Shown here one piece after another: positions 7,453-56,802 of a DNA stretch of 64,000 bases. The first letter of the stretch is position 1, and the number at the start of each line of letters is the position of its first letter. The notes under the pieces were generated by a model. It ran no database searches. It had not been told where the DNA came from and saw only the letters and a program-made list of their open reading frames with translations. The stretch is taken from NCBI GenBank assembly GCA_965242525.1, contig OZ251459.1:800001-864000 (forward strand), written 5' to 3'. The position numbers were made by a program, and so were the translations under genes. The stretch comes from an uncultured Candidatus Binatia bacterium. Its GTDB lineage: Bacteria; Desulfobacterota; Binatia; UBA9968; JAJDTQ01.

Positions 7453-10610
<3,158 letters not shown>

Positions 10611-10614
<4 letters not shown>

Positions 10615-10939: not shown

Positions 10940-12148
10940 TCATGGTTTCAGCCAATCTCCAACCGGCTTCGACAGGAAAGTTTCCACGTCGATGCCGTCG
11001 CCGCCCACCAGCAGTTTCCGCGTCGGTCGAAACGCCTCGGAAAAAGCGCCCATGCCGGCCAGTGTGTCCGCGGCGCGTCCGCTCTTTACCTCGATGGCCA
11101 CCAGCCTGCCGCCGGCGCGCACGACGAAGTCCACCTCGCGGTTGCGCTCGCGCCAGTAATGGACAGCGCATTCGCCCACGGCCGCGGCATTGGCCAAGTG
11201 GGCGCCGATGGCCGACTCCACCAGCCGCCCCCAGAACGTGCGGTCTTCGCGGGCCTGTTCGAGGGTCGTTCCCGCCTGGGCGGTGATGAGGGCGGTGTTG
11301 AACACCTGGAGTTTGGGGCTCGACGCCCGTTGCCGCGCCGCGCCGCCGGAGTATTTCTGCAAGCCGGTGACCAGCCCCGCGCCGGACAGCATGTCGAGGT
11401 AGTGCGCCAACGTGGTGGCGTTGCCGGCGTCCTGAAGCTGCCCCAGCATCTTGTTGTAGGAAAGGATCTGGCCGGAATAGGCGCACCCCAACTCCAGCAC
11501 CCGGCGCAGCAAGGCGGGCTTGTCCACGCGGGAGAGGAGCAGCACGTCGCGGGAGATGATGGGTTCGATGAGCGAGTCGCGGACGTAGCGCGCCCAGCGG
11601 TCCGGCTGCCGGACCAGCGGCGCTGCCCCGGGATAGGCGCCGTAGAAGATGTACTGGTCGAGAGACCAGCCGAACGCCGCCCGCATCTCGACAAAGCTCC
11701 AGTGCGGCAGACGCAGCATCTCGAAACGCCCGGCCAGGCTCTCGCCCAGCCCGCGCTCCACCAGCAGGGGAGCGGAGCCAAGCAGGACCACCTTGAGCGG
11801 CCGGCCCGTGCGGGTGTCCGCATCCCACAGGCGCTTGACGGTCTCGGACCAGCCCGTGACCTTCTGCACTTCGTCGAGAACGAGGAGCGCCCCGTCCGCG
11901 TCCGCCTCGTCCGCGAGGCTCCGCGCCGCCTCCCACTGCTGCTCGATCCACTGGACCCCGCGCAAGGTCGGCTCGTCCGCGCTGGCATACCGCGTCGGCA
12001 GGCCGGATCGCCGCGCCGCCCGCTCCGCCAGCGTCGTCTTGCCCACCTGCCGCGACCCGGCAACCACCTGGATGAACCGCCGCGGCTCCCGCAGCCGCCC
12101 GGCCAACTCTTGGGTCTGTGGCCGGGAATAGGTTGACGATTTACTCAT
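10940..12148 (-). CDS. AAA+ ATPase (AAA_14 / DUF4143 type) with C-terminal PD-(D/E)XK-like domain
   Basis: GSRQVGKTT, LVLDEVQK, ESLAGR, GAYP, WRERNREVDFV...AIEVKS. Confidence 0.9.
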   Translation of the reverse strand: MSKSSTYSRPQTQELAGRLREPRRFIQVVAGSRQVGKTTLAERAARRSGLPTRYASADEPTLRGVQWIEQQWEAARSLADEADADGALLVLDEVQKVTGWSETVKRLWDADTRTGRPLKVVLLGSAPLLVERGLGESLAGRFEMLRLPHWSFVEMRAAFGWSLDQYIFYGAYPGAAPLVRQPDRWARYVRDSLIEPIISRDVLLLSRVDKPALLRRVLELGCAYSGQILSYNKMLGQLQDAGNATTLAHYLDMLSGAGLVTGLQKYSGGAARQRASSPKLQVFNTALITAQAGTTLEQAREDRTFWGRLVESAIGAHLANAAAVGECAVHYWRERNREVDFVVRAGGRLVAIEVKSGRAADTLAGMGAFSEAFRPTRKLLVGGDGIDVETFLSKPVGDWLKP

Positions 12149-12491: not shown

Positions 12492-12860
12492 ATGGGGGAA
12501 CGACAGCCGCGTTACAGCAAAGAGGAGTTCGCCCGGCGCGGTCAGGCGATCTACGAGAAGCGCGTGAGGGCACGGGTGGAAGAAGGCAACCGCGGCAAGA
12601 TCGTGGCGATTGACGTGGAGACCGGGGAGTTCGAGGTGGGGGAGGACACGCTTACCGCCTGCGACCAACTCCTTGCGCGGTGTCCGGATGCACAGCCGTG
12701 GTTGGTCCGCATCGGGCGCCGTGCTGTACATCGGTTCGGGCACTCTCATGCCGGCAGCGCCGATAGGGAAGGGGTCAATCGCCGGCCGCTCGCGGTTGTT
12801 TGTGCTTACTCCAGATTTCCTCGATCTGCTCGTGCTCTAAGACCTTCTGGACTACCTTGA
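12492..12860 (+). CDS. Small DUF5678-like protein, 3' end probably rearranged
   Basis: AGGAGG RBS; YSKEEFARRGQAIYE, GKIVAIDVETGEFEV, WLVRIG...VHRFG; tail runs into the convergent gene. Confidence 0.7.
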   Translation: MGERQPRYSKEEFARRGQAIYEKRVRARVEEGNRGKIVAIDVETGEFEVGEDTLTACDQLLARCPDAQPWLVRIGRRAVHRFGHSHAGSADREGVNRRPLAVVCAYSRFPRSARALRPSGLP

Positions 12861-13849
12861 TTGCCTTCTGGGAGTACCGTTTGTGCACTGTTTTGCCAAT
12901 TTTGATTTCCTTGTAGTAGTCAGGTTGAGAGCGAAGTTTTATATGGTCAATCACGGCAAGAACTTTTGGCATCGTCAGACCAACATGGTCGGCAAGTTGC
13001 TTAGCCCCAAGGTTATAGTAGTCGAGTTCATTTACACGTTTCACGGCAACCACGGGAGCGCCTGGAGTCCCTTCCTCAACAACTTGGATCGGCATACCTT
13101 TCTTTTTTTTCGAATCGGAGGGAAAGTTTGGGAGCAACTCCATCAGTGGTGATTTCGACCGCGGCCACGCCAGAAAATATATCACTCCAAGCTTTTCCAG
13201 TCATGAGATTCTCACCCAGCCGTCTGAGCTCTCGGTCACTAGGCTGACTATTTTCCCCACGAATGGCGCTGTCTAGGATTGCGAGAGGGCGCAATCTGGC
13301 TAAGGCTTCAATTTGACGCCGTCGGCCCGGGCTTAACAGTTTCTTAACCTCAACAAGCTCGGATTCAAAGAGGGTTATGAGATCGGTCGGAGGTGACGTT
13401 GAAACCGGAAGTATGCGTGAGGGTAGGTGGCTGGCAAGCTCTTGATCGAAGACGCTCTTCAAGAGGTCTCGGAACAGCGTCACCCCCGATTGGATATGGA
13501 CATAGAGTTGTCCCTCGGAGATGTCCAACAGGTAGTGTTGGGCGGCATCTCGAAGACAACGGATCGTCTGAAGTACAAGGGCTTGCGAGTCGGATAGGTA
13601 CTTGATCTTACCGTCGGTTAAAGACCGTCGTACGCAAACGTTGAAAACAATGGTTTCTTTGGCTCGCTTATCGCGGATCCTACCGCCCCGTTGTAGAATT
13701 GCAGCCTTCATCAGCATCTCGAAGCCATGATCGAGTTGGATAAGTGTGCTGCTGACCCGTCCCTGGTCGTGTGGTCGGTTGAAGAGCTCGATCGACAAGA
13801 CAAGAGCATCGCATGCTTTCGCAAGAAGGAGTTTTACTTCTCGTTTCAT
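12775..13849 (-). pseudogene. DUF3644-like protein split by a +1 frameshift near 13099-13110
   Basis: SIELFNRP...FEMLMKA N-terminus and RDAAQH HEPN-like motif; protein-like sequence continues in the 12775..13185 frame (GMPIQVVEEG...) after an A8-G-A3 run. Confidence 0.75.
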
Positions 13850-14005: not shown

Positions 14006-14770
14006 TCATGCGGCAAGTTCCTCACGTGACTCATCCCGGGCTGACCATGGAATCGGATGCACGTCATAATTGCGCATGGCTGCGAGCACGTTTTCCGAAA
14101 TCGGGTTTTCCGTGTCGTTGAGGAGCGCATAGGCGCGGCAGTCCGGCGGACGCACCTCTTTCGTGTCAACCCATGAAAAGGCAAGCGCCTGTGCGGTATC
14201 GCGGCTTGGGCGGTTGATGGTCCGTAGAACCCGCTCCGGCTGGATCCTTGACTTGGGTATGACGAAGTCGAATCGATGATCGTAACCGCTCTTGCCGGAA
14301 AACTTGACGTTCGGCGCATATCGAATATCGGCAAGGTCCAGCCACGACACCACGTCTTCATAGAACAGGCTGGCGACGACGGGTGAAGCCAGGTAGAACA
14401 GGTCGCTGACGGCGAGCATCGCCTGTACCAGGTTGTGTTTGCGCAACGCAAAGTTGTCGGACGAAGCTCGAATTTCGAGGGTTTTTTCCCTCATCTGTAC
14501 GCCGAAACCGTTGAGGGTCGTTTTCAGCAGCTCGCGCCTCTTCCCGCCGTCGATCTTGCAGCCTGATTGCTCCATGTCGTTGACGATGTAGCCGTCGTCG
14601 GTCAATACGAATCCTCCATTGGAGCGTTTGGCGTAGATCTGGAGGCAATCGTTATGATGATCCAGGTACGGAGTGGTGATCTCGGTCCAGTCGCCGACCT
14701 CGCGGAGACTCGTTCGATCCCGCAGCCAGGCCCAATACCGATCCAGCAGGGATTGAATTTCGTCAGTCAT
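14006..14770 (-). CDS. DUF1828/DUF1829-like protein
   Basis: [52 protein letters not shown]. Confidence 0.85.
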
Positions 14771-15000
14771 GTGAAGAGACCTCGTCGAATCACGGGCGGT
14801 TCCACGACGTGACAATACCGCATGAAGTCCTGGAGGGTTTGCCACGCGTCATGCAGGTTTGGAAAATCATCGTCGGGCACCGGGAGCGCCCATCTATCGC
14901 CAAACCCCTCACGGTAAAGGTGCAGGTGGGGTGACCGGATTTTTTCGCCGTCGGGGTTGCGGTGCGACACCCGGCCGAAGTCCAGCCGGGCAAGCACCAC
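14767..15000 (-). pseudogene. C-terminal half of a DUF6978-like protein
   Basis: LARLDFG..HRNPDGE...[15 protein letters not shown]; 5' half replaced by repeat DNA; ATGA overlap with the next gene. Confidence 0.75.
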
Positions 15001-15017: not shown

Positions 15018-15241
15018 ATCATTCCCGCAGACGCCCACCCCCGTCATTCCCGCGAAAGCGGGAATCCAGCATCATCGCTCTCGTTGTACCAACCTCTCCA
15101 GTTTTCCATGCCCCTTCCGCTTCCTGATCGCCTTTTCTCTACGGACAGCGCTTCCATGGATTCAGGAACCTCGTGCCAAACCAACCGGTGCCTGGATTCC
15201 CGCCCCCGCTTCAGCGAGGACATGCTTTCGCGGGAATGACA
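15018..15241. repeat. Family B composite palindromic repeat (dRS3-like)
   Basis: GTCATTCCCGCGAAAGCGGGAATCCAG and inverted CTGGATTCCCGC...TTTCGCGGGAATGAC. Confidence 0.85.
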
Positions 15242-15272
15242 GGGCAAGTGTCCGCAACGCCTGCCTCCCGGC

Positions 15273-17132
15273 TTACTGTCTGCCTGCACCACGGCCGGAA
15301 GTTTCCTGTAGTTCTGCTCCCGGAATGCGGATTCGGCCGGAAACGAGCTCAGGCAGCAGGGTATCTCGCAGGGCGGCCAGAGTGCAGGACTCGCGTTGGT
15401 TTGCCTCTATTCGATCCAGAAACGGCCCGCATACCCTTCCGAAAGCGTCCCTTATTTTGCCAGAGGGCAGAGTGATCTCGGTTGCGCTCACAACCTGGGG
15501 CCGGACCGCGGGATACGCAGTCCCATCGGCCACATGGGCCAAGCGCCTGATGTTCTCAGGCGCCGTGGCGTAACCCCAAACCAGCGCTCGATCCCTCGGC
15601 AGGATCGGGCGTAGAACGGCGAAGCCCGTGCTTCCCGTCAGGCCATCCCTGCCGATGAAGGCATAAGACCCGTTTCCAGGTCGGACCGTCCCCAAGATCG
15701 TGTCCCCGGTTCTCAATACACGTTTCGCCCGGCTCGGGGCGTCTTGCCATTCATGGGTTTCGTACTTCTCTATGGTCCCCCATTTCGTGTTCGACAGATC
15801 GACGTAAACGATGGTTTCAGGGGCGTTTCGTGCGGTCCACGCTTCCGGATTCAGCAAAGCAACTGTACTGAGTGTCATCTCTTCCCATCCCTCCGGCATC
15901 ATCCTCCCCGACTCCGACGCCGCGAAGCTATCCGGGAACAGCGCCGCAATCTCCGGTTCCATCCGGTCCAGATACGCCCGAGCGCGCTCGGCTGTCCAGT
16001 CGCCCCCCTTGGGAAGGGGTAGTGGCGTCTGGTTTTCCCCCACCGGCTCAACTGCGGGCCGGCGCCCTTGTCTCGTTGACTCCCCCTCAAGGGATGAGTG
16101 ATCGGAGGGCGCAGCTTTTGTTGCTGGGGTGGAGTTTCCCCGAGGAGGGATCGGATCGGCGGCGTGACGTTTCAGGGCGGCCTTGGCTTGGACGGGATCG
16201 AAATCGACGAACCATGACTGGAACAGCGCCCGCGCCATGGATTCCAGTGTCTCGTTCATGCGCCGGTTCAACTCGATCTTGTCGTCCAGCGCGCCCAGGA
16301 TATGGGCGATGGCGCGCTGTTCGGGGAGAGGCGGAATCGTGACCACAAGATGGTCCAGGGCCTTGGTAGGTACTCTCTGGCGTCCAGATGTGCCGGTCAT
16401 CTGACCGATAGCGTAGTGGCGGACCTCTTCCCATTGTGTCAAATAGTAGGCAAACTCGTGGTCGGTAACGTCCGGGCGTCCTCGGATGACGATGAACTCC
16501 GTTGAGCCATGTGCAGGGTCCGTTGGATCAGGATCGCAGTAGCGGGCGATCTTGCCGTTCTCCAAGCAAGGTGTGATCCGGGCCATGAGGGTGTCGCCAC
16601 TCCGAAAGCGTGTCCCGCCGCCTGAGTAAACGCGTCGTTCCAGTGCATATGCAGACCGGGAACTTGCGTTGACGGTGGCCATGTCAACGAATGGATAGGC
16701 TTTCCCGCGTTCGAGACGGACCGGAGGATTGATCTGTACCGCGTCGCTAAACCGTATCATGGGCCACTCACTCGCGGCATCCCGCTTTTCCTTCTCTATC
16801 AACACCACATACCCCCGCTCGATCTCCGGATGAAAGCCCTTCGGCAGGCGTGCCCAGTCGTGGGCTTCCACCAGAAAGGGGATGTTGGACTCGCGCAGGG
16901 CTTCCCGGAAATCTGCCACCTGTCCGATTGGAATCTTTTGCAGGTCGGGGCTGCGCAAGACCAGGTCCAGGTCGCTTCCGTCATGGCTTTGGCCGTTCAC
17001 GCGGCTGCCGTAGGCCCATGCTTCGATGCCGGGCAGGTGTTCCCGCAGCAGGGCTACCAGCATTTCCCGATGCCGGGGCAATAGGTGCAGCCTGTCGGCT
17101 GGCAGGACCGGGTTGGTGTGCGGCTTACTCAT
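15273..17132 (-). CDS. hsdS: Type I R-M specificity subunit with N-terminal minimal nucleotidyltransferase domain
   Basis: N-terminal AYGSRVNG...SDLDLV; ARITPCLENGK, PPLPEQRAIAHILGALDDKIELN, second TRD, LRDTLLPELVSG. Confidence 0.92.
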   Translation of the reverse strand: MSKPHTNPVLPADRLHLLPRHREMLVALLREHLPGIEAWAYGSRVNGQSHDGSDLDLVLRSPDLQKIPIGQVADFREALRESNIPFLVEAHDWARLPKGFHPEIERGYVVLIEKEKRDAASEWPMIRFSDAVQINPPVRLERGKAYPFVDMATVNASSRSAYALERRVYSGGGTRFRSGDTLMARITPCLENGKIARYCDPDPTDPAHGSTEFIVIRGRPDVTDHEFAYYLTQWEEVRHYAIGQMTGTSGRQRVPTKALDHLVVTIPPLPEQRAIAHILGALDDKIELNRRMNETLESMARALFQSWFVDFDPVQAKAALKRHAADPIPPRGNSTPATKAAPSDHSSLEGESTRQGRRPAVEPVGENQTPLPLPKGGDWTAERARAYLDRMEPEIAALFPDSFAASESGRMMPEGWEEMTLSTVALLNPEAWTARNAPETIVYVDLSNTKWGTIEKYETHEWQDAPSRAKRVLRTGDTILGTVRPGNGSYAFIGRDGLTGSTGFAVLRPILPRDRALVWGYATAPENIRRLAHVADGTAYPAVRPQVVSATEITLPSGKIRDAFGRVCGPFLDRIEANQRESCTLAALRDTLLPELVSGRIRIPGAELQETSGRGAGRQ

Positions 17133-17371: not shown

Positions 17372-17593
17372 TTACGGACCGGTCGGTTTGCCCTGTTTCT
17401 GCTGTTCCTTCTCCCACTGCTCAGCCGCTTGGGGGGTGGTACGATAGCCAACTTGCTTGATGTGTCCCTTCTCCCAGCCTTTCTTGCTCCGATGTTCCGC
17501 TTCGCGGCGATCAATGTCGTTGGTGATGCCCGCTTGGACAATCTTGTTGCCCAACTTGAAGTAATACTTGTACATGATCCTGTCGGTCGCCAT
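17372..17593 (-). CDS. Minimal GIY-YIG-like protein (73 aa)
   Basis: YKY...IVQAGITNDIDRREAEH...AEQWE pattern; GGAGG RBS. Confidence 0.7.
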   Translation of the reverse strand: MATDRIMYKYYFKLGNKIVQAGITNDIDRREAEHRSKKGWEKGHIKQVGYRTTPQAAEQWEKEQQKQGKPTGP

Positions 17594-17604
17594 GCGACAC
17601 CTCC

Positions 17605-18081
17605 TTACTCAAGTTCTTTGCTCAAGGAATAACAACACCGTGCGAATCTGTCAAAGTCCAGTTCAGCACGGGTTGGCCGTGGATCAGTCTTTTGTTTTCG
17701 CGGTCTTCCTCGTATCGTGATCGTTCCTCTGTGGAACCCGTGGTCCGGGTCGTGCGGGACTATTTCCACAGCATGGATGATGGAATTACATGCCTGTCGA
17801 AACAGGAGGTTTTTTGCCTGCCCTGGATATGCCGGCCAGTATCGTCCACATCTTTCGTCGTTGATGAGGGCGGGTTTGAGGTCGAGAAACTGGCGTGTGG
17901 CGGTAGCGATCAAGATCAGTAGTCGGTTTACTTCCGTTTCATGGTTGATTTTCGATAGCTCTTTGAACTGTTCATCAGCGGCTACCTTTTCGTCAGCCAG
18001 TAACAAGACGATCAGTTGATACAGATCCCGGCGATAGGACAAGACGTTGACGAGTGTTTGCTCGTCATTGTGAACCGGCAT
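17605..18081 (-). CDS. Hypothetical protein with HEPN-like R...H motif
   Basis: Lower-GC ORF directly after hsdM; FRQACNSIIHA. Confidence 0.7.
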   Translation of the reverse strand: MPVHNDEQTLVNVLSYRRDLYQLIVLLLADEKVAADEQFKELSKINHETEVNRLLILIATATRQFLDLKPALINDERCGRYWPAYPGQAKNLLFRQACNSIIHAVEIVPHDPDHGFHRGTITIRGRPRKQKTDPRPTRAELDFDRFARCCYSLSKELE

Positions 18082-18091
18082 GGTGGTCCCT

Positions 18092-19669
18092 CTATCGTTG
18101 GCCGCCGAATCCGAGACGCTCCAGGTTCTCGGCGATGGCGGCGTCGAGCCGCGCGCCTTCGGGCTGCTGGGTGCGCAGGTCAACGGCCAGCCGCTTCATC
18201 TTTTCCTCGAACGGTTCGCCGTCGTCCTGCTGCGCTTCCGCGTCCACGTAGCGGCCCGGGGTGAGCACGTGGCCGTACCTGCGGACGTCCTCCAGGGAAG
18301 CGCTTTTGCAGAAGCCGGGGACGTCGGCGTAAGGGGGGATGTCGGCAGCCCCGCTGCGCCAGGCGTGGTAGGTGGCGGCGATGTGGGTGATGTCGTCGTC
18401 CGTCAGTTCCCGGTGGGTGCTATCGACCATGCGGCCGAGCTTGCGGGCGTCGATGAACAGGATTTCGCCCCGGCGGTCGCGGAACCGGCCGTTGCCGCGG
18501 TCCCGGGCCAGGAACCACAGGCAGGCAGGGATCTGGGTCGAGTAGAAGAGTTGGCCGGGTAGGTCGATCACGCAGTCCACCAAGTCGGCTTCGACCAGGT
18601 TCTTGCGGATCTCGCCTCCGCCGGGCTGTCCGGCCGACAGGGATCCCTTGGCGAGCACGAAGCCGGCCGTGCCCGCGGGCGCCAAGTGGTGGACCATGTG
18701 TTGCATCCAGGCGAAGTTGGCGTTGCCTATGGGAGGCGCGCCGTAACGCCAGCGCTTGTCGTCGGTGAGGCGCTCGCCGCCCCATTCCGAGACGTTGAAG
18801 GGCGGGTTGGCGAGGATGAAGTCGGCCTTGAGGTCGGGGTGGCGGTCGTCGTGGAAGCTGTCGCCGTGGGCGATCTGTCCCTCGATGCCGCGGATGGCGA
18901 GGTTCATCTTGGCTAGCCGCCAAGTCGTATAGTTGGACTCCTGGCCGTAGATGGAGATGTCGCTGTGTGTGCGGCCCCCGTTGCCGTTGCCGCTGGCGTG
19001 GGCGCGGATGAACTCCACCGACTGCACGAACATGCCGGACGAGCCGCAGCACGGGTCATAGACCCGGCCCCGGTAGGGCTCCAGCATCTCCACCAGCAGC
19101 TTGACCACGCAGCGCGGTGTGTAGAACTCGCCGGCCCTCTTGCCTTCGGCGCTGGCGAACTGGGACAGGAAATACTCGTACACGCGCCCGAGCACGTCCC
19201 TGGACCGGGCCTCCTGGTCGCCCACCCGGATGTTGCTGATGAGGTCGATCAACTGGCCGAGCCGCTGCTTGTCGAGGGCGGGCCGGGCGTAGTCCTTGGG
19301 CAGCACGTCCTTGAGAGCGGGATTGTCGCGCTCGATGCCGCTCATGGCCCGGTCCACGAGCTGGCCGACCGCGGCCTGCCGGGCCTGCGCCTTGAGTCGG
19401 GTCCAGCGCGCCTCGGGCGGCACCCAGAATATGTTCTCGGCGCGGTACTCGTCCGGGTCCTCCGGGTCGGCGCCCCCTGCCTTTTCGCCCACCAGGCGCG
19501 CGTGCATCTCCTCGAAGGCGTCGGAGATGTATTTCAGGAAGACCAGGCCGAGGACCACGTGCTTGTATTCCGCGGCGTCCATGTTGCCGCGCAAGGTGTC
19601 GGCCATGAGCCACAGCTCGGCCTCGTAGCCGGTGGTGGCGCCCTGGGTCGTGGTGTGCGTTTCCGCCAT
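18092..19669 (-). CDS. hsdM: Type I R-M methyltransferase subunit M
   Basis: [30 protein letters not shown]. Confidence 0.97.
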
Positions 19670-19878: not shown

Positions 19879-19960
19879 GGATTCCCGCTTTCGCGGGAAT
19901 GACGGAGTGGGCTTTTGCGGGAATGAGGGGGAATGACGGCGTGGGGTCTTGCGGGAATAA
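19879..19960. repeat. Family B repeat (inverted) with tandem half-sites
   Basis: GGATTCCCGCTTTCGCGGGAATGAC followed by three GGGAATRA half-sites. Confidence 0.8.
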
Positions 19961-37413: not shown

Positions 37414-37548
37414 GCTGGCCGGATCCGCCGCCGGAGGGAAGGGGACCTCGTTGAAGCCTCCGAGAAATCAGGTTAGATTGGGCATGGAAGCGCAAGCGGG
37501 AAGCGTCCGATTTTTTCTCCCGTGAACCGCACGGAAGGTCAAGACCTG

Positions 37549-40152
37549 ATGGCGGACTCCTTTCTTTTCGATTCTCTCAAGAGCGCCGCGGGCGAATGGC
37601 GGCGGAGCGGATACCCTTGCGGCGGCTACCCGCTGATCGGCGAGATACTCGCCTGGCAGACGGAGAAGCAGGAAGACCGCTCGGTTCCCAAATATCTGCG
37701 CGAGCCTCAACTCCTCGCCATGGAAGTGTACTGGTATGTCCGCCTCGTGCTGAAAACCCCCCACATCCTCGACATTTACAGGCATTTCTACGGGACGGAC
37801 AAGAAGGTCTTCTTCGAGGCGCTTGGCGTTTCCATATCGAGGGATGCTCTGGAGTGGGCGGACATCGACGGGGTTATCCGAAGGGTCAAGGAGGACGAGG
37901 GTTTCGTGAGGGACAAGAGGATACAGGCCCTGCACGAAGCCGCGAAACTGGACTACCCCAGCTACATCCTCGCCCTGGCGATGGGGGCGGGCAAGACCGT
38001 GCTGATCGGCGCGATCGTCGCCACCGAGTTCGCCATGTCCATGCGGTATCCCGACGGCGAAACCAGGTTCATGAAGAACGCCCTCGTTTTCGCCCCCGGC
38101 ACCACCATCATCGAAAGCCTGCGGGAGCTCAGCGGAATGCCTTACGACAAGGTTTTGCCGCCCGGGCTGAACCGGGACTTTCTCGCCAATCTGAAAATCG
38201 AGTTTCCGGGCCACGAGAAGGACATCCAGGCGCAGAAGGGAAGCAGCTACAACCTGATCGTCACGAACACCGAAAAAATCAGCCTGCGCGCGGTTCCGAG
38301 AAAAAACCAGCCGACCCTGATCGCAGAACGCAAGAGAGTGCAGGCGAACCTGCGGCTCCAGAAGATAGCGAGCCTGCCGAATCTCGGCGTGTTTTCGGAC
38401 GAGGCGCATCACACCTACGGCAACACCTTCGACCAGCTAAAGCGGGTGCGGGAGACCATAAACTACATCCACGAGGAGCGGCCCATCGTGGCGGTGGTCA
38501 ATACGACAGGAACGCCGTACTACGAGAAGCAGCTCCTGAAGGAGGTCGTCATCTGGTACGGGCTTGGGGACGGCATCAGGGACAACATCCTCAAGGACCT
38601 CAACAACGGAGTTCATCAATACGACATCGGCAGGGAGTCGGACGAGGATGTGTTCCGGGACATCGTCGAGGAGTTTTTCCGCGGCTACGGCGCTGTCGCC
38701 CTCCCCGACGGCGCGAAGGCGAAGATCGCCTTCTACTTCAAGACGCAGGCGCACCTGGAGGCTTCCCGGGCCTTTATCGAGCGGGCGATGACGGGGATAG
38801 GCGAGGAGGTTTCCCAAGTCCTGGTGAACACGCAGAAGTCCGCCGTCGCCGAGGTGGACGACTTCAAGAGGCTGAACAATCCCGACAACCGGAAACGAGT
38901 CATCCTGCTCATCGGCAAGGGCGTGGAGGGCTGGAACTGCCCGAGCCTGTTCGCCTGCGCCCTCATCAAGGAGCAGACGACCAGCAGCAACTACGTCTTG
39001 CAGGCGGCGACCCGGTGCTTGCGGCAGGTTCCCGGAAACACGCGGTCGGCGAAAATTTTCCTGGACTACGGCAACGCGAGGATCCTCGACAAGCAGCTAC
39101 AGGACAACTTCCGCACCGACCTCGGCCGGCTGAGCGCCGGGGCCGGGGAGAAGGCAACCGTCACCCTGCGCATCCTCAAGACGCGGCTGCCCGAACTGGA
39201 AATCACCCGCACCGTGAAAAGAGCGGTCCGGAAGAGGACGCCGGGCGCGGACATTCTCCTTGCAAAGCCGGACGCGGCGGCTCCGCCTCCCATTCTGCGC
39301 AGCGTGTTCACCCCCGACTTCAGCGGACCGGGAGAAATCCTGACGCCGACCGGCGAAATGGAGGAGCTGCCTGTGGCAGAGGGGATCGTGAGCCGCCACG
39401 CCGCCGCCTGGAGAATCGCGTCGAGATACCACCTGCCGATCCTCCCGATTCTCAAAAGCCTCGAAAGCCTTTACCCGGAAGGGACAGTGCCCCAAAGCCA
39501 CTTGTACGGGCTGTTCCGGCAAGTGGAGGAGCAGCAGGCGAACTACGGTACGGTGGAGGAAAAGGTAACCGAGGCCATGGCGCTGATCCGGGTTTGGGAC
39601 GAGAACGGAAAAGACCTTTTCGAGAGGGACGAGGACGGCTGCTTCGTCCATCGTCTGCGGCTGCTGAAGCGCACTCATGAGCGGATGAAGGATCCTGGCC
39701 TGTTGGCCGAAAGCGGGAGCTACGAGGACAAGGGGGATTTGAGTTTCCACTACACGCCTTACAATTTCGACTCCACGCCCGAGCGGTCCTTCTTCGGTGG
39801 GATTCTGTCCGCCCTCGATGCGGAACCGGACGACGTGGAGGCGTTCCTGTTCACGGGCGGCCTCACGGATCCGAAGAAGACCGACTTCCATTTCGAGTAT
39901 CTCGGCGAGGATCGTCGCTACCACCGCTATTTCCCCGACTTCGTGATCGTGAAGAAAACGGGGGAGTTCCATATCGTCGAGGTGAAGGCGGAGAGCGAGC
40001 GGGGCAACGTCATTGTGGAAGCGAAGAAGAAGGCAATGGAGCGGATTCAAGGGTTGCAGCCGGAGCGGTTCAAGTATCAGATCGTCTATGCGCCTGAATC
40101 GACGATAGGTCCACGGGAAGCCAAGCCCGTGCTGGATTGGATAAACGCATAG
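37549..40152 (+). CDS. Type III-like restriction subunit (SF2 helicase + PD-(D/E)XK nuclease)
   Basis: LAMGAGKT, DEAHH, TGTP, EGW; C-terminal YFPDFVI...IVEVK. Confidence 0.88.
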   Translation: MADSFLFDSLKSAAGEWRRSGYPCGGYPLIGEILAWQTEKQEDRSVPKYLREPQLLAMEVYWYVRLVLKTPHILDIYRHFYGTDKKVFFEALGVSISRDALEWADIDGVIRRVKEDEGFVRDKRIQALHEAAKLDYPSYILALAMGAGKTVLIGAIVATEFAMSMRYPDGETRFMKNALVFAPGTTIIESLRELSGMPYDKVLPPGLNRDFLANLKIEFPGHEKDIQAQKGSSYNLIVTNTEKISLRAVPRKNQPTLIAERKRVQANLRLQKIASLPNLGVFSDEAHHTYGNTFDQLKRVRETINYIHEERPIVAVVNTTGTPYYEKQLLKEVVIWYGLGDGIRDNILKDLNNGVHQYDIGRESDEDVFRDIVEEFFRGYGAVALPDGAKAKIAFYFKTQAHLEASRAFIERAMTGIGEEVSQVLVNTQKSAVAEVDDFKRLNNPDNRKRVILLIGKGVEGWNCPSLFACALIKEQTTSSNYVLQAATRCLRQVPGNTRSAKIFLDYGNARILDKQLQDNFRTDLGRLSAGAGEKATVTLRILKTRLPELEITRTVKRAVRKRTPGADILLAKPDAAAPPPILRSVFTPDFSGPGEILTPTGEMEELPVAEGIVSRHAAAWRIASRYHLPILPILKSLESLYPEGTVPQSHLYGLFRQVEEQQANYGTVEEKVTEAMALIRVWDENGKDLFERDEDGCFVHRLRLLKRTHERMKDPGLLAESGSYEDKGDLSFHYTPYNFDSTPERSFFGGILSALDAEPDDVEAFLFTGGLTDPKKTDFHFEYLGEDRRYHRYFPDFVIVKKTGEFHIVEVKAESERGNVIVEAKKKAMERIQGLQPERFKYQIVYAPESTIGPREAKPVLDWINA

Positions 40153-40163
40153 GAGAACGAAAC

Positions 40164-40229
40164 ATGAGAACCTTCAATGTGTTCATCAGCCATTCTTGGA
40201 CTTGCCAATGGAGATCGATCACTCCCTGA
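40164..40229 (+). pseudogene. 5' stub of a TIR-domain (ThsB/MTH538-like) gene
   Basis: AGGAGA RBS, then MRTFNVFISHSWT and a stop after 21 codons. Confidence 0.6.
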
Positions 40230-40233
40230 TCCA

Positions 40234-42003
40234 ATGACCGCTTCCCTCGAAATCACCCCGATCAAGGGACGCCCGATGCTGCACTGGGTCGGGAAGAAGC
40301 CGCTCGACCTCGTGCGCCACTATCCGGCGCAGGTCTGCGAGGGCGTCGGCGTCAGGAACCCGCCTGCAGAGCCCTCGTGGGAGGACTTCATCGAGAGCGG
40401 GACGAACCTGCTCTTTCACGGCGACAACAAGGAGGTCCTCTCATCCCTGCTGGTCGCCGGCTTCCGGGGCCGAGTGGACCTCATCTATATCGATCCGCCC
40501 TTCGATTCCGGCGCGGATTACGTCCGCAAGGTAAGGCTGCGCGGGGAGACGGGGACTCTCGAAGGCCGAGGCCATACCCTGCTGGAGCGGGTGCAGTACG
40601 AGGACATATGGGCGAACGACAACTACCTGCAATTCGTGTATGAGCGGCTGATTCTGATGCGCGAATTGCTGAGCAACCGGGGAAATATCTACCTCCATTG
40701 CGACTGGCACAAGAGCCACCATCTACGCTTTCTGCTGGACGAGGTGTTCGGCGCGGAGAATTTCGTCAACGAAGTGATTTGGCACTACAAGCGATGGACC
40801 GCTCCCAGTGACAATTTTCAGGCATTGCACGACTCCATTTTCTGGTATGCAAAGAACAAGACCAGCAGGATCTACAATACGGTATGGGTCGTTCCGGCAA
40901 ACGTAGAGAAGGGAAGGAAGGAAAACTACCAGGAAGACGAAGAGGGAAGGCTGTATCGCTGGCAAACTGCGAATGGGGAAAGGTACAAGATTTATCGAGA
41001 CCAGAAGGGCGTACAGGCCGGGGACGTCTGGGAGATCGCTTTCGTTCATCCTTCAGGGCAGGAAAGGAAGGATTTTCCCACACAAAAGCCCGAAGCCCTT
41101 CTCGAACGCATCATCAAGGCTTCGAGCCACGAGGATTCCATCGTCCTGGACTGTTTCTGCGGCTCAGGCACGGCGGCCGCGGTCGCGGAGAGGCTGGGCC
41201 GGCGCTGGATCATGGCGGACATCAACAAGGGCGCGATCCAGACGACCATGAAGCGTTTGCAAGGCGTCGTCGGTGAAAAGAACGGTGACTTCCTTGAGAA
41301 GGGGCGCGGGTTCGTCCACTACCGGGTGAACGACTACGACGCCGCCAACCACAACGACCTCAAGCGCGTCATCCTCTCCAGATACGGGGTTCAGACGGAC
41401 GCCAAGGATCTGTTTTTCGACGGAACCACCGCCGATGGCCTGCTGGCGAAAATCGTGGATTTGAACAGGCCCCTCACCCGACTGGACGTGCAGATCGTCA
41501 AGGACGAGATCACGGACAACCGGCCGGACGAGACCCGGGACGTTTGCGTGTTCTGCAACGGCTCCGAACTGGGGATCATCGAAGAGCTCGACCGCGAAAA
41601 GAGCCCCATCAACAGAATCTCCGTATGCGACGTTCAACAGGAGGGGGTGATTACCAACCGGCCCGCCGAGGCGGAGGTGGAGATCGAAAGGAGCGGCGCG
41701 AAGGCCCGGATCAGGGTTCTCGACTACATCAGCCCCTCCATCCTGGCGCGGATGGAGATGGACCGCACTATATTCGATGAGCGGATCGACGACTTTCGCG
41801 CGCAGATCGACTGCGTGCTCATCGACGCCGACTACGACGGCGAATGCTTCAAGATCGCGGAAAGCGATTTGCCCAAGAGGCGGACCGACTTCATCAAGAG
41901 CGATTATGAGTTGGAACTGCCGCGAACCGACGCCAAAGTCGCCGTCAAGATCGTGGACATGCTCGGCGAGGAGGTTCTGGTGGTCGAATCCGACGATAGC
42001 TGA
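40234..42003 (+). CDS. Type III-like DNA methyltransferase (Mod, beta class)
   Basis: IYIDPPF, FPTQKPEALLERII, LDCFCGSGT. Confidence 0.92.
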   Translation: MTASLEITPIKGRPMLHWVGKKPLDLVRHYPAQVCEGVGVRNPPAEPSWEDFIESGTNLLFHGDNKEVLSSLLVAGFRGRVDLIYIDPPFDSGADYVRKVRLRGETGTLEGRGHTLLERVQYEDIWANDNYLQFVYERLILMRELLSNRGNIYLHCDWHKSHHLRFLLDEVFGAENFVNEVIWHYKRWTAPSDNFQALHDSIFWYAKNKTSRIYNTVWVVPANVEKGRKENYQEDEEGRLYRWQTANGERYKIYRDQKGVQAGDVWEIAFVHPSGQERKDFPTQKPEALLERIIKASSHEDSIVLDCFCGSGTAAAVAERLGRRWIMADINKGAIQTTMKRLQGVVGEKNGDFLEKGRGFVHYRVNDYDAANHNDLKRVILSRYGVQTDAKDLFFDGTTADGLLAKIVDLNRPLTRLDVQIVKDEITDNRPDETRDVCVFCNGSELGIIEELDREKSPINRISVCDVQQEGVITNRPAEAEVEIERSGAKARIRVLDYISPSILARMEMDRTIFDERIDDFRAQIDCVLIDADYDGECFKIAESDLPKRRTDFIKSDYELELPRTDAKVAVKIVDMLGEEVLVVESDDS

Positions 42004-42101: not shown

Positions 42102-42599
42102 ATGCTGACGGACCCGGAGATTCAAGCCCTGGTAACGTCCCCGAAAAGGATCGCCCGCAGGAATCCGGCCAGAGGGTATGTCGAAGAAAACGGCCACAGG
42201 CGATGCTCGTTGGTGATGGAATGCGTTGAGGGAGAAGGAGAATCCTTCACCGTCTTTGTTCGCCAGAACAGCCAGTTCATAGAAAACTACTCTATCGGAC
42301 TGCGCTGGCAAACCGGAAACAGGGATTGGGGGTCCATAACGCTCGTTCGCTACAACGGTCCGCATGGAGAGGTCAGTCGTGATGAAGACGGTCATTATGC
42401 CAAGCCGCACATACACCGCATGACGGCTGAGGAAATGCAGGCCGGAAGTGTAAGACCACCGGAGAGGCAGAGGGAAATTACCGATAGATACAGCACGCTC
42501 GAAAGCGCTCTCGAAGTTTTCTTCGGTGACGCGGGCGTGACGAATTGGCGGGAGTATTTTCCCGAGTTGAGCCAAGGGAGTCTTTTCAATGAATCCTGA
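42102..42599 (+). CDS. DUF6978-like hypothetical protein
   Basis: MLTDPEIQAL, LVRYNGPH, PHIH, C-terminal QGSLF. Confidence 0.75.
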   Translation: MLTDPEIQALVTSPKRIARRNPARGYVEENGHRRCSLVMECVEGEGESFTVFVRQNSQFIENYSIGLRWQTGNRDWGSITLVRYNGPHGEVSRDEDGHYAKPHIHRMTAEEMQAGSVRPPERQREITDRYSTLESALEVFFGDAGVTNWREYFPELSQGSLFNES

Positions 42600-43356
42600 C
42601 AAGGCGAGCAGCTTGCTCCGGGAGAGGGCGCGAAACGGCTTTGACCTCTATGAACGCAGGCCGGGGAAGCACCAGCTCATCGTCCCTATCCTTCACGAGG
42701 ACGGGGATATGGTGGATATCTACCTGCAAGACAGCCCCAAGGGTGAGGACTACGTGCGCATCTGCGATTTCGGCATGGCGCTCATGCGCCTTTCCTGTAC
42801 CTACGAGATAAACAGCTCGGCGCGTGAAAGGATCTTTGACAGCATTCTCGTCAACAACGGGGTTTCCAATGATGAGGGAAACCTGTACCTGGATATCTCG
42901 CCCGAGATGCTCTACGAGGGTGTATTGCAATTCGCGGGCTGCGTTCAAAAGGTATGCAATATGCGCTATTGGAGCAGGGAGATTGTCCGAAGCGCGTTTT
43001 ACGACGACCTGAAGAATTACACCGCGACGGAACTGGCCCCGTTCCATCCGCAACCGGATGTATCTCCTCTGCCGAGTTATGAAATTATCAAGGTGGACTG
43101 GTCTTTGACACACCACGAACGCCATTTCTATCTCTTCGGGATAGGAAGCGGCGACAAGGCGAAGAACGTGGCCATTTCGTTGCTGGAGTTTCAAAAGGCG
43201 AAACTGCGGTTCATCAGCCTCGTGGTGTACGAGGACATGGAGGAGCTCGGAAGAAAGGAAAGGCAGTATCTCACCAAGAACGCGGATACCCAGTACCCGA
43301 CCCTGGCGGATTTTCGGGAGAAGGCGCATTCGGACATCCCCAGGTTGGCGGCATGA
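42589..43356 (+). CDS. DUF1828-like protein
   Basis: IVPILHEDGDMVDIYL...RICDFG; 11-bp overlap with the upstream gene. Confidence 0.8.
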   Translation: MNPDKASSLLRERARNGFDLYERRPGKHQLIVPILHEDGDMVDIYLQDSPKGEDYVRICDFGMALMRLSCTYEINSSARERIFDSILVNNGVSNDEGNLYLDISPEMLYEGVLQFAGCVQKVCNMRYWSREIVRSAFYDDLKNYTATELAPFHPQPDVSPLPSYEIIKVDWSLTHHERHFYLFGIGSGDKAKNVAISLLEFQKAKLRFISLVVYEDMEELGRKERQYLTKNADTQYPTLADFREKAHSDIPRLAA

Positions 43357-47411: not shown

Positions 47412-47522
47412 GGCTCTTCAGGAATTCGTGTGGGTAAGGTAGGAGGGAAAGGGGTGAGACGGGGCCAGGCCATCGTTCCCGCAGATGTCCCTCCCCGTCA
47501 TTCCCGCGAAAGCGGGAATCCA
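47412..47522. repeat. Family B repeat with conserved terminal segment (inverted)
   Basis: GGCTCTTCAGG...GGAGGGAAAG...GTCATTCCCGCGAAAGCGGGAATCCA. Confidence 0.8.
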
Positions 47523-52403: not shown

Positions 52404-52630
52404 CCCGTCATCCCCGCGAAAGCCCTGTCTCGTCATTCCCGCGAAAGCGGGAATCCAGACCTTGCGAGAAAACCCCATGGGCACCCTGTATGAGAGGTTT
52501 GTACAACGAGGGCGAGGAAAGCGGATTCCTGCCCTCGCTTCCGCGAGGACATGCTTTCGCGGGAATGACGGCCTGACCTCTGTCGCTCCCCTTTCCCTCC
52601 TGCATTACCACACGAAAGCCTGAAGATCCG
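52404..52630. repeat. Family B composite repeat
   Basis: GTCATTCCCGCGAAAGCGGGAATCCAG...TTTCGCGGGAATGAC...CGAAAGCCTGAAGA; closely matches 56571-56802. Confidence 0.88.
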
Positions 52631-56570: not shown

Positions 56571-56802
56571 CCGTCATTCCCGCAGACGCCCGCCTCGTCA
56601 TTCCGGCAGAGTCCGCTTCGTCATTCCCGCGAAGGCGGGAATCCAGACCTTGCGAGCAAACCCCATGGGCCCTCCCTGTATGAGCGATGAAAGTGGATTC
56701 CTGCCCCCGCTTCCGCGAGGACATGCTTTCGCGGGAATGACGGCATGACTCCCGTCGCTCCGCTTTCCCTCCTGCCTTACCCATACGAAAGCCTGAAGAG
56801 CC
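56571..56802. repeat. Family B composite repeat
   Basis: Three GTCATTCC half-sites, a full palindrome, an inverted partner and terminal CCTGAAGAGCC. Confidence 0.88.

What the first reader, a model, noticed from the sequence alone, without database searches (positions are those of the whole stretch)
42102..43356. A two-gene module (DUF6978-like + DUF1828-like) occurs beside both R-M systems: candidate uncharacterised defence or TA system
Seen: overlapping gene pairs at 42102-43356 (after mod) and 14006-15000 (after hsdS). The small proteins share L-x-R-[YL]-[ND]...H...PH[IL]H. The partners, about 255 aa each, share P-x-L-x-x-x-x-D-x-x-x-IY...[TC]DxG and a degenerate nuclease-like C-terminal half. 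The copies are highly diverged, so they look like independent acquisitions rather than a local duplication. In the first locus the small gene is truncated while the partner is intact, the pattern expected if the small gene is the toxic component. Inference: a His-rich effector plus a chaperone/nuclease-fold regulator acting as an anti-phage system or R-M backup. I know of no function for this pair, but cannot exclude one having been published.
Basis: partly seen in the sequence, partly recalled or inferred. Interest (0 to 1): 0.85.

Follow-up and report, generated by a model that had tools for sequence, protein, structure and literature searches.

The report
Two diverged PDC-M24 defence-candidate gene pairs
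Both restriction-modification loci in this window carry a copy of a two-gene module already listed, but never tested, as an anti-phage candidate (PADLOC PDC-M24), and across genomes its small gene is repeatedly broken while its partner stays whole.

Summary
A1/B1 (42102-42599 / 42589-43356, after a type III res-mod) and A2/B2 (14767-15000 / 14006-14770, inside a type I hsd operon) are two very diverged copies of one module: a DUF6978 small protein plus a DUF1828/DUF1829 protein. A2 is a 3' remnant; a MITE-like repeat lies where its 5' half should be. The pair is not uncatalogued. Locus 1 matches PADLOC PDC-M24A/B (3e-31, 3e-104), one of 145 untested candidates from Payne et al. 2024. Locus 2 belongs to a diverged clade: A1 has no PADLOC hit and B1 a weak one. 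New here: A-B adjacency in 79 of 80 species' loci; embedding as res-A-B-mod and hsdM-A-B..hsdR; the pair in the lysogeny module of Staphylococcus phages and on an IncP-1 plasmid. B models as a T3SS-chaperone/YbjN-like N domain plus a restriction-endonuclease-like C domain. A has no clear PDB fold and an invariant K/R/HxH core. A alone is disrupted in 14 loci, B alone in 1. Best reading: a mobile toxin-antitoxin-like defence module in which A is the costly effector and B its binder or regulator. Function remains untested.

The parts
42102..42599 (+). A1: intact 165-aa DUF6978-superfamily small protein of a diverged clade
   Evidence: ORF. Pfam DUF6978 is sub-threshold but full-length (E 0.028, positions 1-127 of 133). 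No PADLOC hit at E<=0.1. 380 relatives found. 23 of 33 clade members hit DUF6978. AF2 pLDDT 87.2, pTM 0.84.
42589..43356 (+). B1: intact 255-aa partner with a DUF1828 N domain and a diverged DUF1829-like C domain
   Evidence: Pfam DUF1828 8.7e-15. PADLOC PDC-M24B 2.2e-13 and 9.9e-10. hhalign to the B2 family E 1.1e-5. AF2 pLDDT 86.3, pTM 0.55. Fold matches.
37522..40152 (+). Type III restriction subunit (res), context of locus 2
   Evidence: Pfam ResIII 4.3e-05. 69-74% identical res genes flank A-B in L009, L025, L049 and L076.
40177..42003 (+). Type III methyltransferase (mod), context of locus 2
   Evidence: Pfam N6_N4_Mtase 1.7e-50.
14767..15000 (-). A2: 3' remnant (77-aa ORF) of a canonical DUF6978 / PDC-M24A gene
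   Evidence: Pfam DUF6978 1.8e-24, positions 70-133 of 133. PADLOC PDLC04538 3.2e-31, positions 70-145 of 146. Full-length relatives are 149 aa. In-frame stop upstream.
14006..14770 (-). B2: intact canonical DUF1828+DUF1829 / PDC-M24B protein (254 aa from the ATG at 14770; longest ORF runs to 14845)
   Evidence: Pfam DUF1828 1.1e-26 and DUF1829 3.4e-31. PADLOC PDLC04539 3.2e-104. Relatives are 254 aa at up to 94% identity.
15039..15244 (.). MITE-like repeat with 21-nt terminal inverted repeats, lying where the 5' half of A2 should be
   Evidence: Inverted repeat arms 15039-15059 and 15224-15244 are 95% complementary. Its 24-nt core occurs 5 times in the window against 0 expected.
15273..17132 (-). 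hsdS (type I specificity subunit), context of locus 1
   Evidence: Pfam Methylase_S 1.6e-10.
18092..19669 (-). hsdM, context of locus 1
   Evidence: Pfam N6_Mtase 9.6e-105 and HsdM_N 8.3e-27.
7453..10614 (-). hsdR, context of locus 1
   Evidence: Pfam HSDR_N, SWI2_SNF2 and T1RH-like_C.

Best explanation
Both pairs are copies of one mobile two-gene module, the PADLOC candidate PDC-M24: a DUF6978 small protein A, translationally coupled to a DUF1828/DUF1829 protein B. Locus 1 is a canonical copy embedded in a type I R-M operon; its A gene has lost its 5' half, where a MITE-like repeat now lies. Locus 2 is an intact copy of a diverged clade attached to a type III R-M.

Most likely mechanism (inferred, not shown): a toxin-antitoxin-like anti-phage or anti-mobile-element module. 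A is the costly effector, an enzyme built on a beta-sheet with an invariant Lys/Arg/His-x-His core. B holds or regulates it through its chaperone-like N domain. B's restriction-endonuclease-like C domain serves as a nucleic-acid-binding or sensing part and, in the canonical clade, possibly as a nuclease. The module works on its own. R-M operons and prophage lysogeny modules are simply favoured landing sites.

Shown: identity, homology, conserved adjacency, genomic contexts, fold-level resemblances of B, and the asymmetry of decay. Inferred: defence function, toxicity of A, A-B binding, and any catalytic activity.
For: Identity: the PADLOC and Pfam hits, and the family links.

Conserved operon:
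- A B1 homologue directly follows the A1 homologue in 79 of 80 loci, one per species.
- In a 401-genome sample of the window's phylum, all 13 DUF6978 places lie just upstream of a DUF1828 place on the same strand (coordinates compared by eye).

Defence-type contexts:
- 22 of 80 loci have hits to this window's R-M proteins within 10 kb, and 15 of 80 within 1.5 kb.
- The order is res-A-B-mod in L009, L025, L049, L075 and L076, and hsdM-A-B..hsdR in L014, L023, L035, L059 and L081.
- Of 79 upstream neighbours, 10 carry N6_Mtase, 3 Eco57I, 3 ResIII, 2 N6_N4_Mtase, 2 Mrr_cat_2 and 1 Type_ISP_C. Of 73 downstream neighbours, 4 carry Methylase_S and 3 N6_N4_Mtase.
- In Staphylococcus phages 37 and phiSP119-3 the pair lies between the repressor and the integrase, in their orientation.
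- It also lies in the accessory region of IncP-1 plasmid pRSB223.

A is the costly part. Among the 80 loci:
- A alone is disrupted in 14: 5' truncation in L063; frameshift or nonsense in L025, L028, L062, L067, L073, L076, L077, L078, L080, L081 and L082; IS insertions in L071 and L079.
- B alone is disrupted in 1 (L020).
- Both are disrupted in 3 (L075, L083, L084).
- Both are intact in 58.
- 4 are cut by contig ends.
- Given gene lengths of 165 and 255 codons, the one-sided binomial p is 2e-5.
- The lesions sit at different sites and use different stop codons.
- In the canonical clade, 4 of 13 A genes are truncated or hold a stop, and B's frame is open at full length in 3 of those 4. The window's own locus 1 is one of them.

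B model:
- Residues 1-130 resemble YbjN and T3SS class I chaperones: 3cxj Z 10.1 (rmsd 3.1, 116 aligned), Spa15 2xga Z 9.4, SycN-YscB 1xkp Z 8.6.
- Residues about 135-255 resemble PD-(D/E)xK nucleases: Bax1 6p4w Z 9.8, PspGI 3bm3 Z 9.7, Can2 7bdv Z 9.7, BsaWI 4zsf Z 9.2.

Precedent: a DUF1829-containing partner (DS-6B) accompanies a HipA-like kinase in the validated defence pair DS-6/HipAD, which the authors hypothesise to be TA-like (PMC13092281, passages read).
Against: - No experiment exists for PDC-M24. It is one of 145 untested candidates.
- 58 of 80 loci have no detected R-M nearby, and many immediate neighbours are housekeeping genes such as MFS transporters, transketolase, MoCo enzymes and SecA. 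The neighbour genes were called with my own heuristic.
- A has no recognisable fold or enzyme family: Foldseek finds nothing at E<=1e-3, the best VIA Z is 6.2, and a PDB profile search finds nothing. 'Effector' is therefore inferred only from conserved polar residues and the pattern of decay.
- B's fold matches (Z 8-10) are only a little above the usual best Z of 7-8 for models without a clear match. CheY-like receivers score Z 8-9 on the same C domain.
- In the B1 clade the position that aligns with the canonical clade's conserved Glu is not acidic (my reading of the alignment). B1 is therefore probably not a canonical PD-(D/E)xK enzyme.
- The direct A1-A2 profile comparison is weak.
- The pair is rare on plasmids: 3 of 72,556 records.
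- A third B-like gene in this genome stands without any A, so B has a life of its own.
- Many of the genomes may carry a high general load of pseudogenes. The A/B asymmetry controls for that only partly.
Confidence: 0.5

Rival explanations
1. B is the effector, a restriction-endonuclease-fold nuclease. A is an accessory sensor, activator or specificity factor, so the module is a small restriction-like or Abi nuclease system and not TA-like.
For: - B's C domain resembles type II restriction enzymes, Bax1 and Can2.
- In the canonical clade, acidic residues are conserved in a helix and two strands (E138/D139, D168, E179). I read this by eye as a possible D...E motif.
- B is far more widespread than A: 6734 relatives against a few hundred. 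Those searches are not directly comparable.
- A B-like gene follows a 479-aa DNA methylase without any A, like a type II M+R pair.
Against: - The B1 clade lacks the Glu at the aligned strand.
- CheY-like folds score as well as nucleases.
- If A were merely an activator, its loss would leave B useless, and B should decay at least as often as A. Instead A alone is broken 14 times and B alone once.
Confidence: 0.2
2. The module is a guard of R-M systems, like PrrC: A is kept latent by the R-M complex through B and is released when a phage inhibits restriction.
For: The pair is embedded between R-M subunits in at least 10 of 80 loci and in both loci of this window. PDC-M24 itself was defined from genes embedded in BREX, DISARM or type I R-M systems.
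Against: - 58 of 80 loci have no hit to the window's R-M proteins within 10 kb.
- The pair occurs in phage lysogeny modules and on an IncP-1 plasmid, and no R-M gene is annotated in the stretches shown.
- It accompanies unrelated R-M types: I, III, Eco57I-like and Mrr.
Confidence: 0.1
3. The module is not an immune module. It is a selfish addiction or stabilisation cassette, or a regulator pair of mobile elements, and it hitch-hikes in variable regions.
For: - It has a mobile, patchy distribution across many phyla, with low G+C relative to the host.
- It is present on plasmids and prophages.
- Many loci sit beside housekeeping genes.
Against: It is very rare on plasmids: 3 of 72,556 records. 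Its position in R-M operons and between the repressor and integrase of temperate phages is typical of defence or exclusion genes; that generalisation is from established knowledge, not a call.
Confidence: 0.15

Closest known systems
PADLOC PDC-M24 (phage defence candidate, multi-gene no. 24; Payne et al. 2024, bioRxiv 10.1101/2024.01.29.577857)
   Same: Locus 1 matches both models (A2 3.2e-31, B2 3.2e-104). It lies embedded in a type I R-M operon, which is how the candidates were found. Locus 2 has the same two-gene architecture and is homologous by profiles.
   Different: A1 has no PADLOC hit at E<=0.1, and B1 has only a partial one (2.2e-13, positions 27-146 of 255). PADLOC would therefore probably not call locus 2 (inference). 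The B1 clade has no Pfam DUF1829 hit. It is found embedded in type III R-M systems, a context not used to define the PDCs. PDC-M24 has no tested function. I could not see the paper's supplementary tables, where its description would be.
DS-6 / HipAD (DefensePredictor, Science 2026, PMC13092281)
   Same: A validated two-gene defence pair whose second protein carries DUF1829. The authors hypothesise that it acts as the antitoxin-like, DNA-binding partner of the effector (passages read).
   Different: The effector there is a HipA-like kinase, not DUF6978. The partner's other domain is DUF3037, not DUF1828. I made no sequence comparison with DS-6B, because its sequence was not on hand.
PrrC-EcoprrI (anticodon nuclease embedded in a type I R-M operon)
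   Same: A non-R-M gene nested between R-M subunit genes. PrrC is named in Payne et al. as almost exclusively embedded in type I R-M systems.
   Different: No family in common with PrrC turned up. Most homologous loci here lack R-M neighbours. The PrrC mechanism is recalled from the literature and was not tested here.
Type II toxin-antitoxin pairs with the toxin gene first (higBA, hicAB, mqsRA; order recalled)
   Same: Two small overlapping genes that are mobile, with the upstream gene recurrently inactivated while the downstream one is kept.
   Different: There is no sequence or fold match of A to any known toxin. B is a 255-aa two-domain protein, not a small DNA-binding antitoxin. Neither toxicity nor neutralisation has been shown.
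YbjN family / type III secretion class I chaperones (fold of B residues 1-130)
   Same: Fold-level resemblance: 3cxj Z 10.1, PA14_16140 8q8o Z 9.4, Spa15 Z 9.4, InvB Z 8.5, AmyR Z 7.8.
   Different: 7-15% sequence identity. B is fused to a nuclease-like domain. There is no secretion system in the context.

Membership tests
PADLOC PDC-M24 | Small protein matches a PDC-M24A model | tested here: inconclusive
   A2 matches: PDLC04538 3.2e-31, but only positions 70-145 of 146, because it is truncated. A1 has no hit at E<=0.1. However, 13 of 33 close A1 relatives hit PDLC04537 and 10 of 33 hit PDLC04538.
PADLOC PDC-M24 | Partner matches a PDC-M24B model | tested here: met
   B2: PDLC04539 3.2e-104, full length. 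B1: PDLC04539 2.2e-13 (N domain) and PDLC04540 9.9e-10 (30-212 vs 27-219 of 256).
PADLOC PDC-M24 | The two genes are adjacent and on the same strand | tested here: met
   11-nt overlap in locus 2 and 4-nt overlap in locus 1. Adjacency holds in 79 of 80 related loci.
PADLOC PDC-M24 | Anti-phage activity | not testable with these tools
   The text of Payne et al. that I read reports it only as a candidate. No paper in the library names PDC-M24.
Pfam DUF6978 (PF22398) | Score above the gathering threshold of 29.6 bits | tested here: inconclusive
   A2 scores 86.9 bits and passes. A1 scores 15.1 bits and fails, although the alignment covers positions 1-127 of 133. 23 of 33 clade members hit at E<=1e-3. 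27 of the 42 proteins in the mixed scan hit.
Pfam DUF1828 + DUF1829 | Both domains above threshold | tested here: inconclusive
   B2 has both (93.4 and 108 bits). B1 has DUF1828 only (55.2 bits). hhalign extends the B1/B2 alignment to column 204 of 254, which lies inside the DUF1829 region.
PD-(D/E)xK nuclease superfamily (B C domain) | Restriction-endonuclease-like alpha/beta core | tested here: inconclusive
   Z 9-10 to Bax1, PspGI, Can2, BsaWI and BstEII. CheY-like receivers score Z 8-9 on the same residues. Foldseek finds nothing at E<=1e-3.
PD-(D/E)xK nuclease superfamily (B C domain) | Catalytic D ... (D/E)xK residues | tested here: inconclusive
   One Asp is shared by both clades (B1 D170, aligned with the Asp of the FDF motif in B2). 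The canonical clade's Glu aligns with a non-acidic residue in the B1 clade. The motif assignment is my reading of alignments, not a structural superposition.
Type II toxin-antitoxin system | Toxicity of one product, neutralised by direct binding of the other | not testable with these tools
   There is only indirect evidence: A alone is disrupted in 14 loci and B alone in 1.

The most novel reading that the evidence does not exclude
DUF6978 is a new kind of small enzymatic toxin built on an invariant K/R/HxH core. It is held inactive by a protein that joins a secretion-chaperone-like fold to a degenerate restriction-endonuclease fold. The pair forms a previously uncharacterised abortive-infection system that temperate phages, plasmids and R-M operons exchange across many phyla. 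Where it is nested in R-M operons, it fires when the R-M complex is disabled.
Probability: 0.12. Interest if true: 0.75.

Novelty: new member of a known kind. Interest (0 to 1): 0.45.

Why it matters
PDC-M24 is a name without a function. This window offers an intact, diverged copy next to a decayed canonical one. The comparative data give the candidate a testable shape: which gene to express alone (A), which residues to mutate (K15, R83, H103, H105 of A1; D170 of B1), and what B probably is (a chaperone-like binder fused to a nuclease-like fold).

The recurrent, independent knock-out of A with B retained is the kind of signature expected of a costly immune effector. It could be used as a general computational screen for toxic components. 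The A1/B1 clade also escapes current PADLOC models for A, so defence censuses of the lineages that carry it are likely to undercount it. If the module proves to be ordinary, the finding is simply another instance of a catalogued candidate.

Tried and rejected
- Pairwise BLASTP of A1/A2 and B1/B2 found nothing, so homology had to be shown through profiles.
- Foldseek against the PDB gave no match at E<=1e-3 for either model.
- VIA wide search for A1 gave only generic beta-sheet matches, best Z 6.2. I considered a His-Me-finger (beta-beta-alpha-metal) reading of the strand-loop-strand-helix around H88-E111. I dropped it because no such nuclease appeared among the 50 rows listed and I could not inspect coordinates.
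- Profile searches of PDB sequences found nothing for the A1 family and only chance-level rows (E about 0.1) for the B2 family.
- The protein atlas search only repeated DUF6978.
- The promoter/terminator scan around locus 2 gave no more than the shuffles.
- Complex prediction of B1 with A1 returned the verdict 'weak support'. The score was 0.52 (runs 0.52, 0.55, 0.51) and the best of 3 controls was 0.00. That mark was reached by 58 of 80 solved complexes and 2 of 110 mismatched pairs, but a score of 0.60 or under was reached by only 7 of those 80 solved complexes and by both mismatches that passed. The runs agree in at least 65% of their contacts, and the partner's pLDDT is at least 75. My own alignments were used, so the calibration holds only roughly. 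I do not count this as evidence either way.
- I first counted A as broken in 5 of 13 canonical places. On re-reading, G036 (open frame 154 aa) and G242 (171 aa) are probably whole but diverged at the N terminus. The count used in this report is 4 of 13. The p value for '4 vs 0' is not used.
- My first tally of 11 A-only disruptions missed in-frame stops. One search added L025, L028 and L062 to the A-only class and moved L075 to 'both disrupted'.
- The reading 'A is the antitoxin and B the toxin' is rejected, because A is broken with B intact in 14 loci.
- Literature searches for DUF6978, DUF1828, DUF1829, PDC-M24 and the Pfam/InterPro numbers found no functional study. Supplementary tables of Payne et al. 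and of DefensePredictor were not available and may hold descriptions or tests of this pair.
Full report
**What is there**

Locus 2 lies on the + strand. It holds a type III res (37522-40152) and mod (40177-42003), confirmed by Pfam. Then come A1 (42102-42599, 165 aa) and B1 (42589-43356, 255 aa), which overlap by 11 nt.

Locus 1 lies on the - strand and is a type I operon. In order it holds:
- hsdM (18092-19669);
- two unassigned ORFs;
- hsdS (15273-17132);
- A2 (14767-15000, 77 aa);
- B2 (14006-14770 from the ATG that overlaps the A2 stop; longest ORF to 14845);
- a split PDC-S19/DUF3644 gene;
- an AAA_14/DUF4143 ATPase;
- hsdR (7453-10614).

The backbone has G+C of 0.68-0.72. Locus 2 has 0.55-0.62, and the cassette between hsdM and hsdR has 0.50-0.61.

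**Family assignment**

| Protein | Pfam | PADLOC |
|---|---|---|
| A2 | DUF6978, 1.8e-24, model positions 70-133 only | PDC-M24A, 3.2e-31 |
| B2 | DUF1828 + DUF1829 | PDC-M24B, 3.2e-104 |
| B1 | DUF1828, 8.7e-15 | PDC-M24B, 2.2e-13 and 9.9e-10 |
| A1 | DUF6978, sub-threshold but full-length, E 0.028 | none |

PDC-M24 is one of 145 'phage defence candidates'. Payne et al. derived them from genes embedded in BREX, DISARM and type I R-M systems and added them to PADLOC without testing. The seven systems they confirmed are others (bioRxiv 10.1101/2024.01.29.577857; outline, sections 10 and 17 and passages read). No paper in the library names PDC-M24, DUF6978 with a function, or the Pfam/InterPro accessions. 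Supplements could not be read.

**Are the two pairs homologous?**

BLASTP says nothing.

For B:
- I aligned 31 B1-clade proteins taken from related loci, together with B1 and the genome's third copy, and separately 26 B2 relatives.
- hhalign gives probability 81.8%, E 1.1e-5 over 170 columns. That covers the DUF1828 domain and the first half of the DUF1829 region.

For A:
- The direct profile comparison is weak: E 0.017, probability 2.7%, though colinear over 124 columns.
- The link holds by transitivity. 23 of 33 A1-clade members hit DUF6978 (best 1.6e-8), and 13 of 33 hit PDC-M24A.
- An A1-clade HMM finds 871 cluster representatives at E<=1e-3 among 1.84 billion.
- I scanned 42 proteins: A1, 37 of the more distant hits and 4 canonical A2 relatives. 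27 of them are DUF6978 by Pfam.
- In that joint alignment the invariant residues are K15, R83, H103 and H105 in A1 numbering.

All 150 listed hits are 84-232 aa, so no informative fusion is visible. One A2 relative is annotated as fused to an HsdS domain.

**The truncation of A2**

Full-length relatives are 149 aa and up to 88% identical to the remnant. In frame upstream of the remnant there is a stop codon. Next comes a roughly 206-bp element with 21-nt terminal inverted repeats at 15039-15244. Its core occurs five times in the window against none expected. The 5' half of A2 was therefore lost at or beside a MITE-like insertion. B2 is whole and 94% identical to its nearest relative.

**Related loci**

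A scan of one genome per species found 99 relatives of A1, of which the best 80 were kept. By their record titles they are metagenome-assembled genomes. Most are labelled Dehalococcoidia/Chloroflexota (including Caldilineaceae) or Latescibacterota; a few carry other labels.
- A B1 homologue follows directly in 79 of 80 loci.
- The same type III R-M flanks the pair as res-A-B-mod in L009, L025, L049, L075 and L076, and lies nearby in L028 and L080.
- Type I genes flank it as hsdM-A-B..hsdR in L014, L023, L035, L059 and L081.
- In all, 22 of 80 loci have hits to this window's R-M proteins within 10 kb, and 15 within 1.5 kb.
- Pfam tallies of my heuristic gene calls agree and add other R-M kinds (Eco57I, Mrr, type ISP). 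They also show many housekeeping neighbours.

In a 401-genome sample of the window's phylum, DUF1828 occurs in 27 genomes (32 places) and DUF6978 in 12 genomes (13 places). Every DUF6978 place lies just upstream of a DUF1828 place. This genome has three DUF1828 genes. The third, B3, is 29% identical to B1 (7e-29). It follows a 479-aa DNA methylase and has no A gene.

Outside chromosomes, the pair lies in three kinds of place:
- in the accessory region of IncP-1 plasmid pRSB223 and on an Acetobacter plasmid (3 of 72,556 plasmid records hit);
- between the repressor and the integrase of Staphylococcus phages 37 and phiSP119-3;
- B-like genes also lie near the left end of Streptococcus prophages and in two satellite records.

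**Asymmetric decay**

I classified the 80 loci by tblastn pieces, open frames and in-frame stops.

| State | Loci | Which |
|---|---|---|
| Both genes intact | 58 | includes L072, whose A starts about 10 residues late |
| A alone disrupted | 14 | L063 (5' truncation); L025, L028, L062, L067, L073, L076, L077, L078, L080, L081, L082 (nonsense or frameshift); L071, L079 (IS insertions carrying transposase ORFs) |
| B alone disrupted | 1 | L020 |
| Both disrupted | 3 | L075, L083, L084 |
| Cut by contig ends | 4 | L041, L060, L066, L085 |

- The lesions are at different places and use TAA, TAG and TGA.
- Given 165 against 255 codons, 14 of 15 on the A side has a one-sided binomial p of 2e-5.
- The loci were found through A itself, and the 19 lowest-scoring hits were dropped. 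Both facts bias against finding broken A genes.
- Kin are not fully independent, and the genomes may be rich in pseudogenes in general, so the p value is indicative only.
- The canonical clade shows the same tendency: 4 of 13 A genes are disrupted, 3 of them with B open.

**Structure**

A1 folds confidently (pLDDT 87.2, pTM 0.84). The model has an N-terminal helix, a meander of seven or eight strands, a less confident loop that carries the PHGE...DGH motif, then the HIH strand and short helices. It has no convincing PDB counterpart.

B1 (pLDDT 86.3, pTM 0.55) has two domains:
- Residues 1-130 resemble YbjN proteins and type III secretion class I chaperones (Z 8-10).
- Residues about 135-255 resemble PD-(D/E)xK nucleases (Z 9-10), but CheY-like receivers score nearly as well.

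These Z values are only modestly above the usual background. One Asp is shared by both B clades. The canonical clade's conserved Glu has no acidic counterpart in the B1 clade (my reading).

**Interpretation**

The identity of both loci as PDC-M24-type modules is secure. A defence or exclusion role is likely from context. It rests on embedding in R-M operons of two types, on the lysogeny-module position in temperate phages, on mobility, and on the precedent of a DUF1829 partner in the validated DS-6/HipAD pair (PMC13092281, passages read). It is untested.

The decay pattern excludes 'A protects against B' and fits 'A is costly, and B is harmless or useful alone'. I therefore favour a toxin-antitoxin-like module with A as effector and B as binder or regulator, at about 50%. 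An obligate link to R-M is unlikely, since most loci have none nearby.

**Verdict**

The module is, however, already catalogued as an untested candidate.

The new points are:
- the diverged clade that current PADLOC models miss for A;
- the embedding in type III R-M;
- the fold assignment of B;
- the asymmetry of decay.

Noticed in passing
window 12775-13849 (-): A PDC-S19 / DUF3644 (HEPN-type) gene is split into two overlapping ORFs. ORF 13076-13849 matches PDLC04951 positions 1-250 of 357 (5.9e-111). ORF 12775-13185 matches positions 247-352 (4.1e-36). This looks like a frameshifted copy of another PADLOC candidate in the same type I operon. Payne et al. validated a DUF3644-bearing system, HEC-08.
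   Followed up: partly
window 15039-15244; further core copies at 19882-19905, 47495-47518, 52430-52453, 56618-56641: A MITE-like repeat with 21-nt terminal inverted repeats (95% complementary). Its 24-nt core occurs 5 times in the window against 0 expected. Its translation gives the recurring 'SRFRGNDG' peptides seen in spurious ORFs.
   Followed up: partly
G000:C1:2920827-2921609 (= L005:9328-10110, -) and L005:10225-11664 (-): A third, stand-alone B-like gene (260 aa; DUF1828 2.9e-14; 29% identical to B1). It lies directly downstream of a 479-aa DNA methylase with a partial N6_N4_Mtase match and has no DUF6978 gene. It could be an M+R-like pair.
   Followed up: partly
window 17605-18183 (-) and 17372-17593 (-): Two ORFs (192 aa and 73 aa) are nested between hsdM and hsdS and have no Pfam or PADLOC hit at E<=0.1. 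By eye, the 73-aa product has a GIY-YIG-like 'KIVQAGITNDIDRREAEH' stretch. This was not tested.
   Followed up: no
window 15273-17132 (-): The HsdS ORF is long (619 aa). By eye, its first 110 or so residues look like a nucleotidyltransferase (MNT-like) domain ('GSRVNG...SDLDLVL'). Pfam at E<=1e-4 reported only Methylase_S.
   Followed up: no
window 10940-12148 (-): An AAA_14 + DUF4143 ATPase (4.5e-22 and 7.8e-28) is also embedded between hsdS and hsdR. The type I operon thus holds at least four foreign cassettes.
   Followed up: no
L071:7498-10001 and L079:7269-9054: The A genes of two related genomes are interrupted by insertions of 2.5 kb and 1.8 kb. Both carry transposase-like ORFs, which I judged by eye to be IS1595-like and IS4/IS5-like.
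   Followed up: partly
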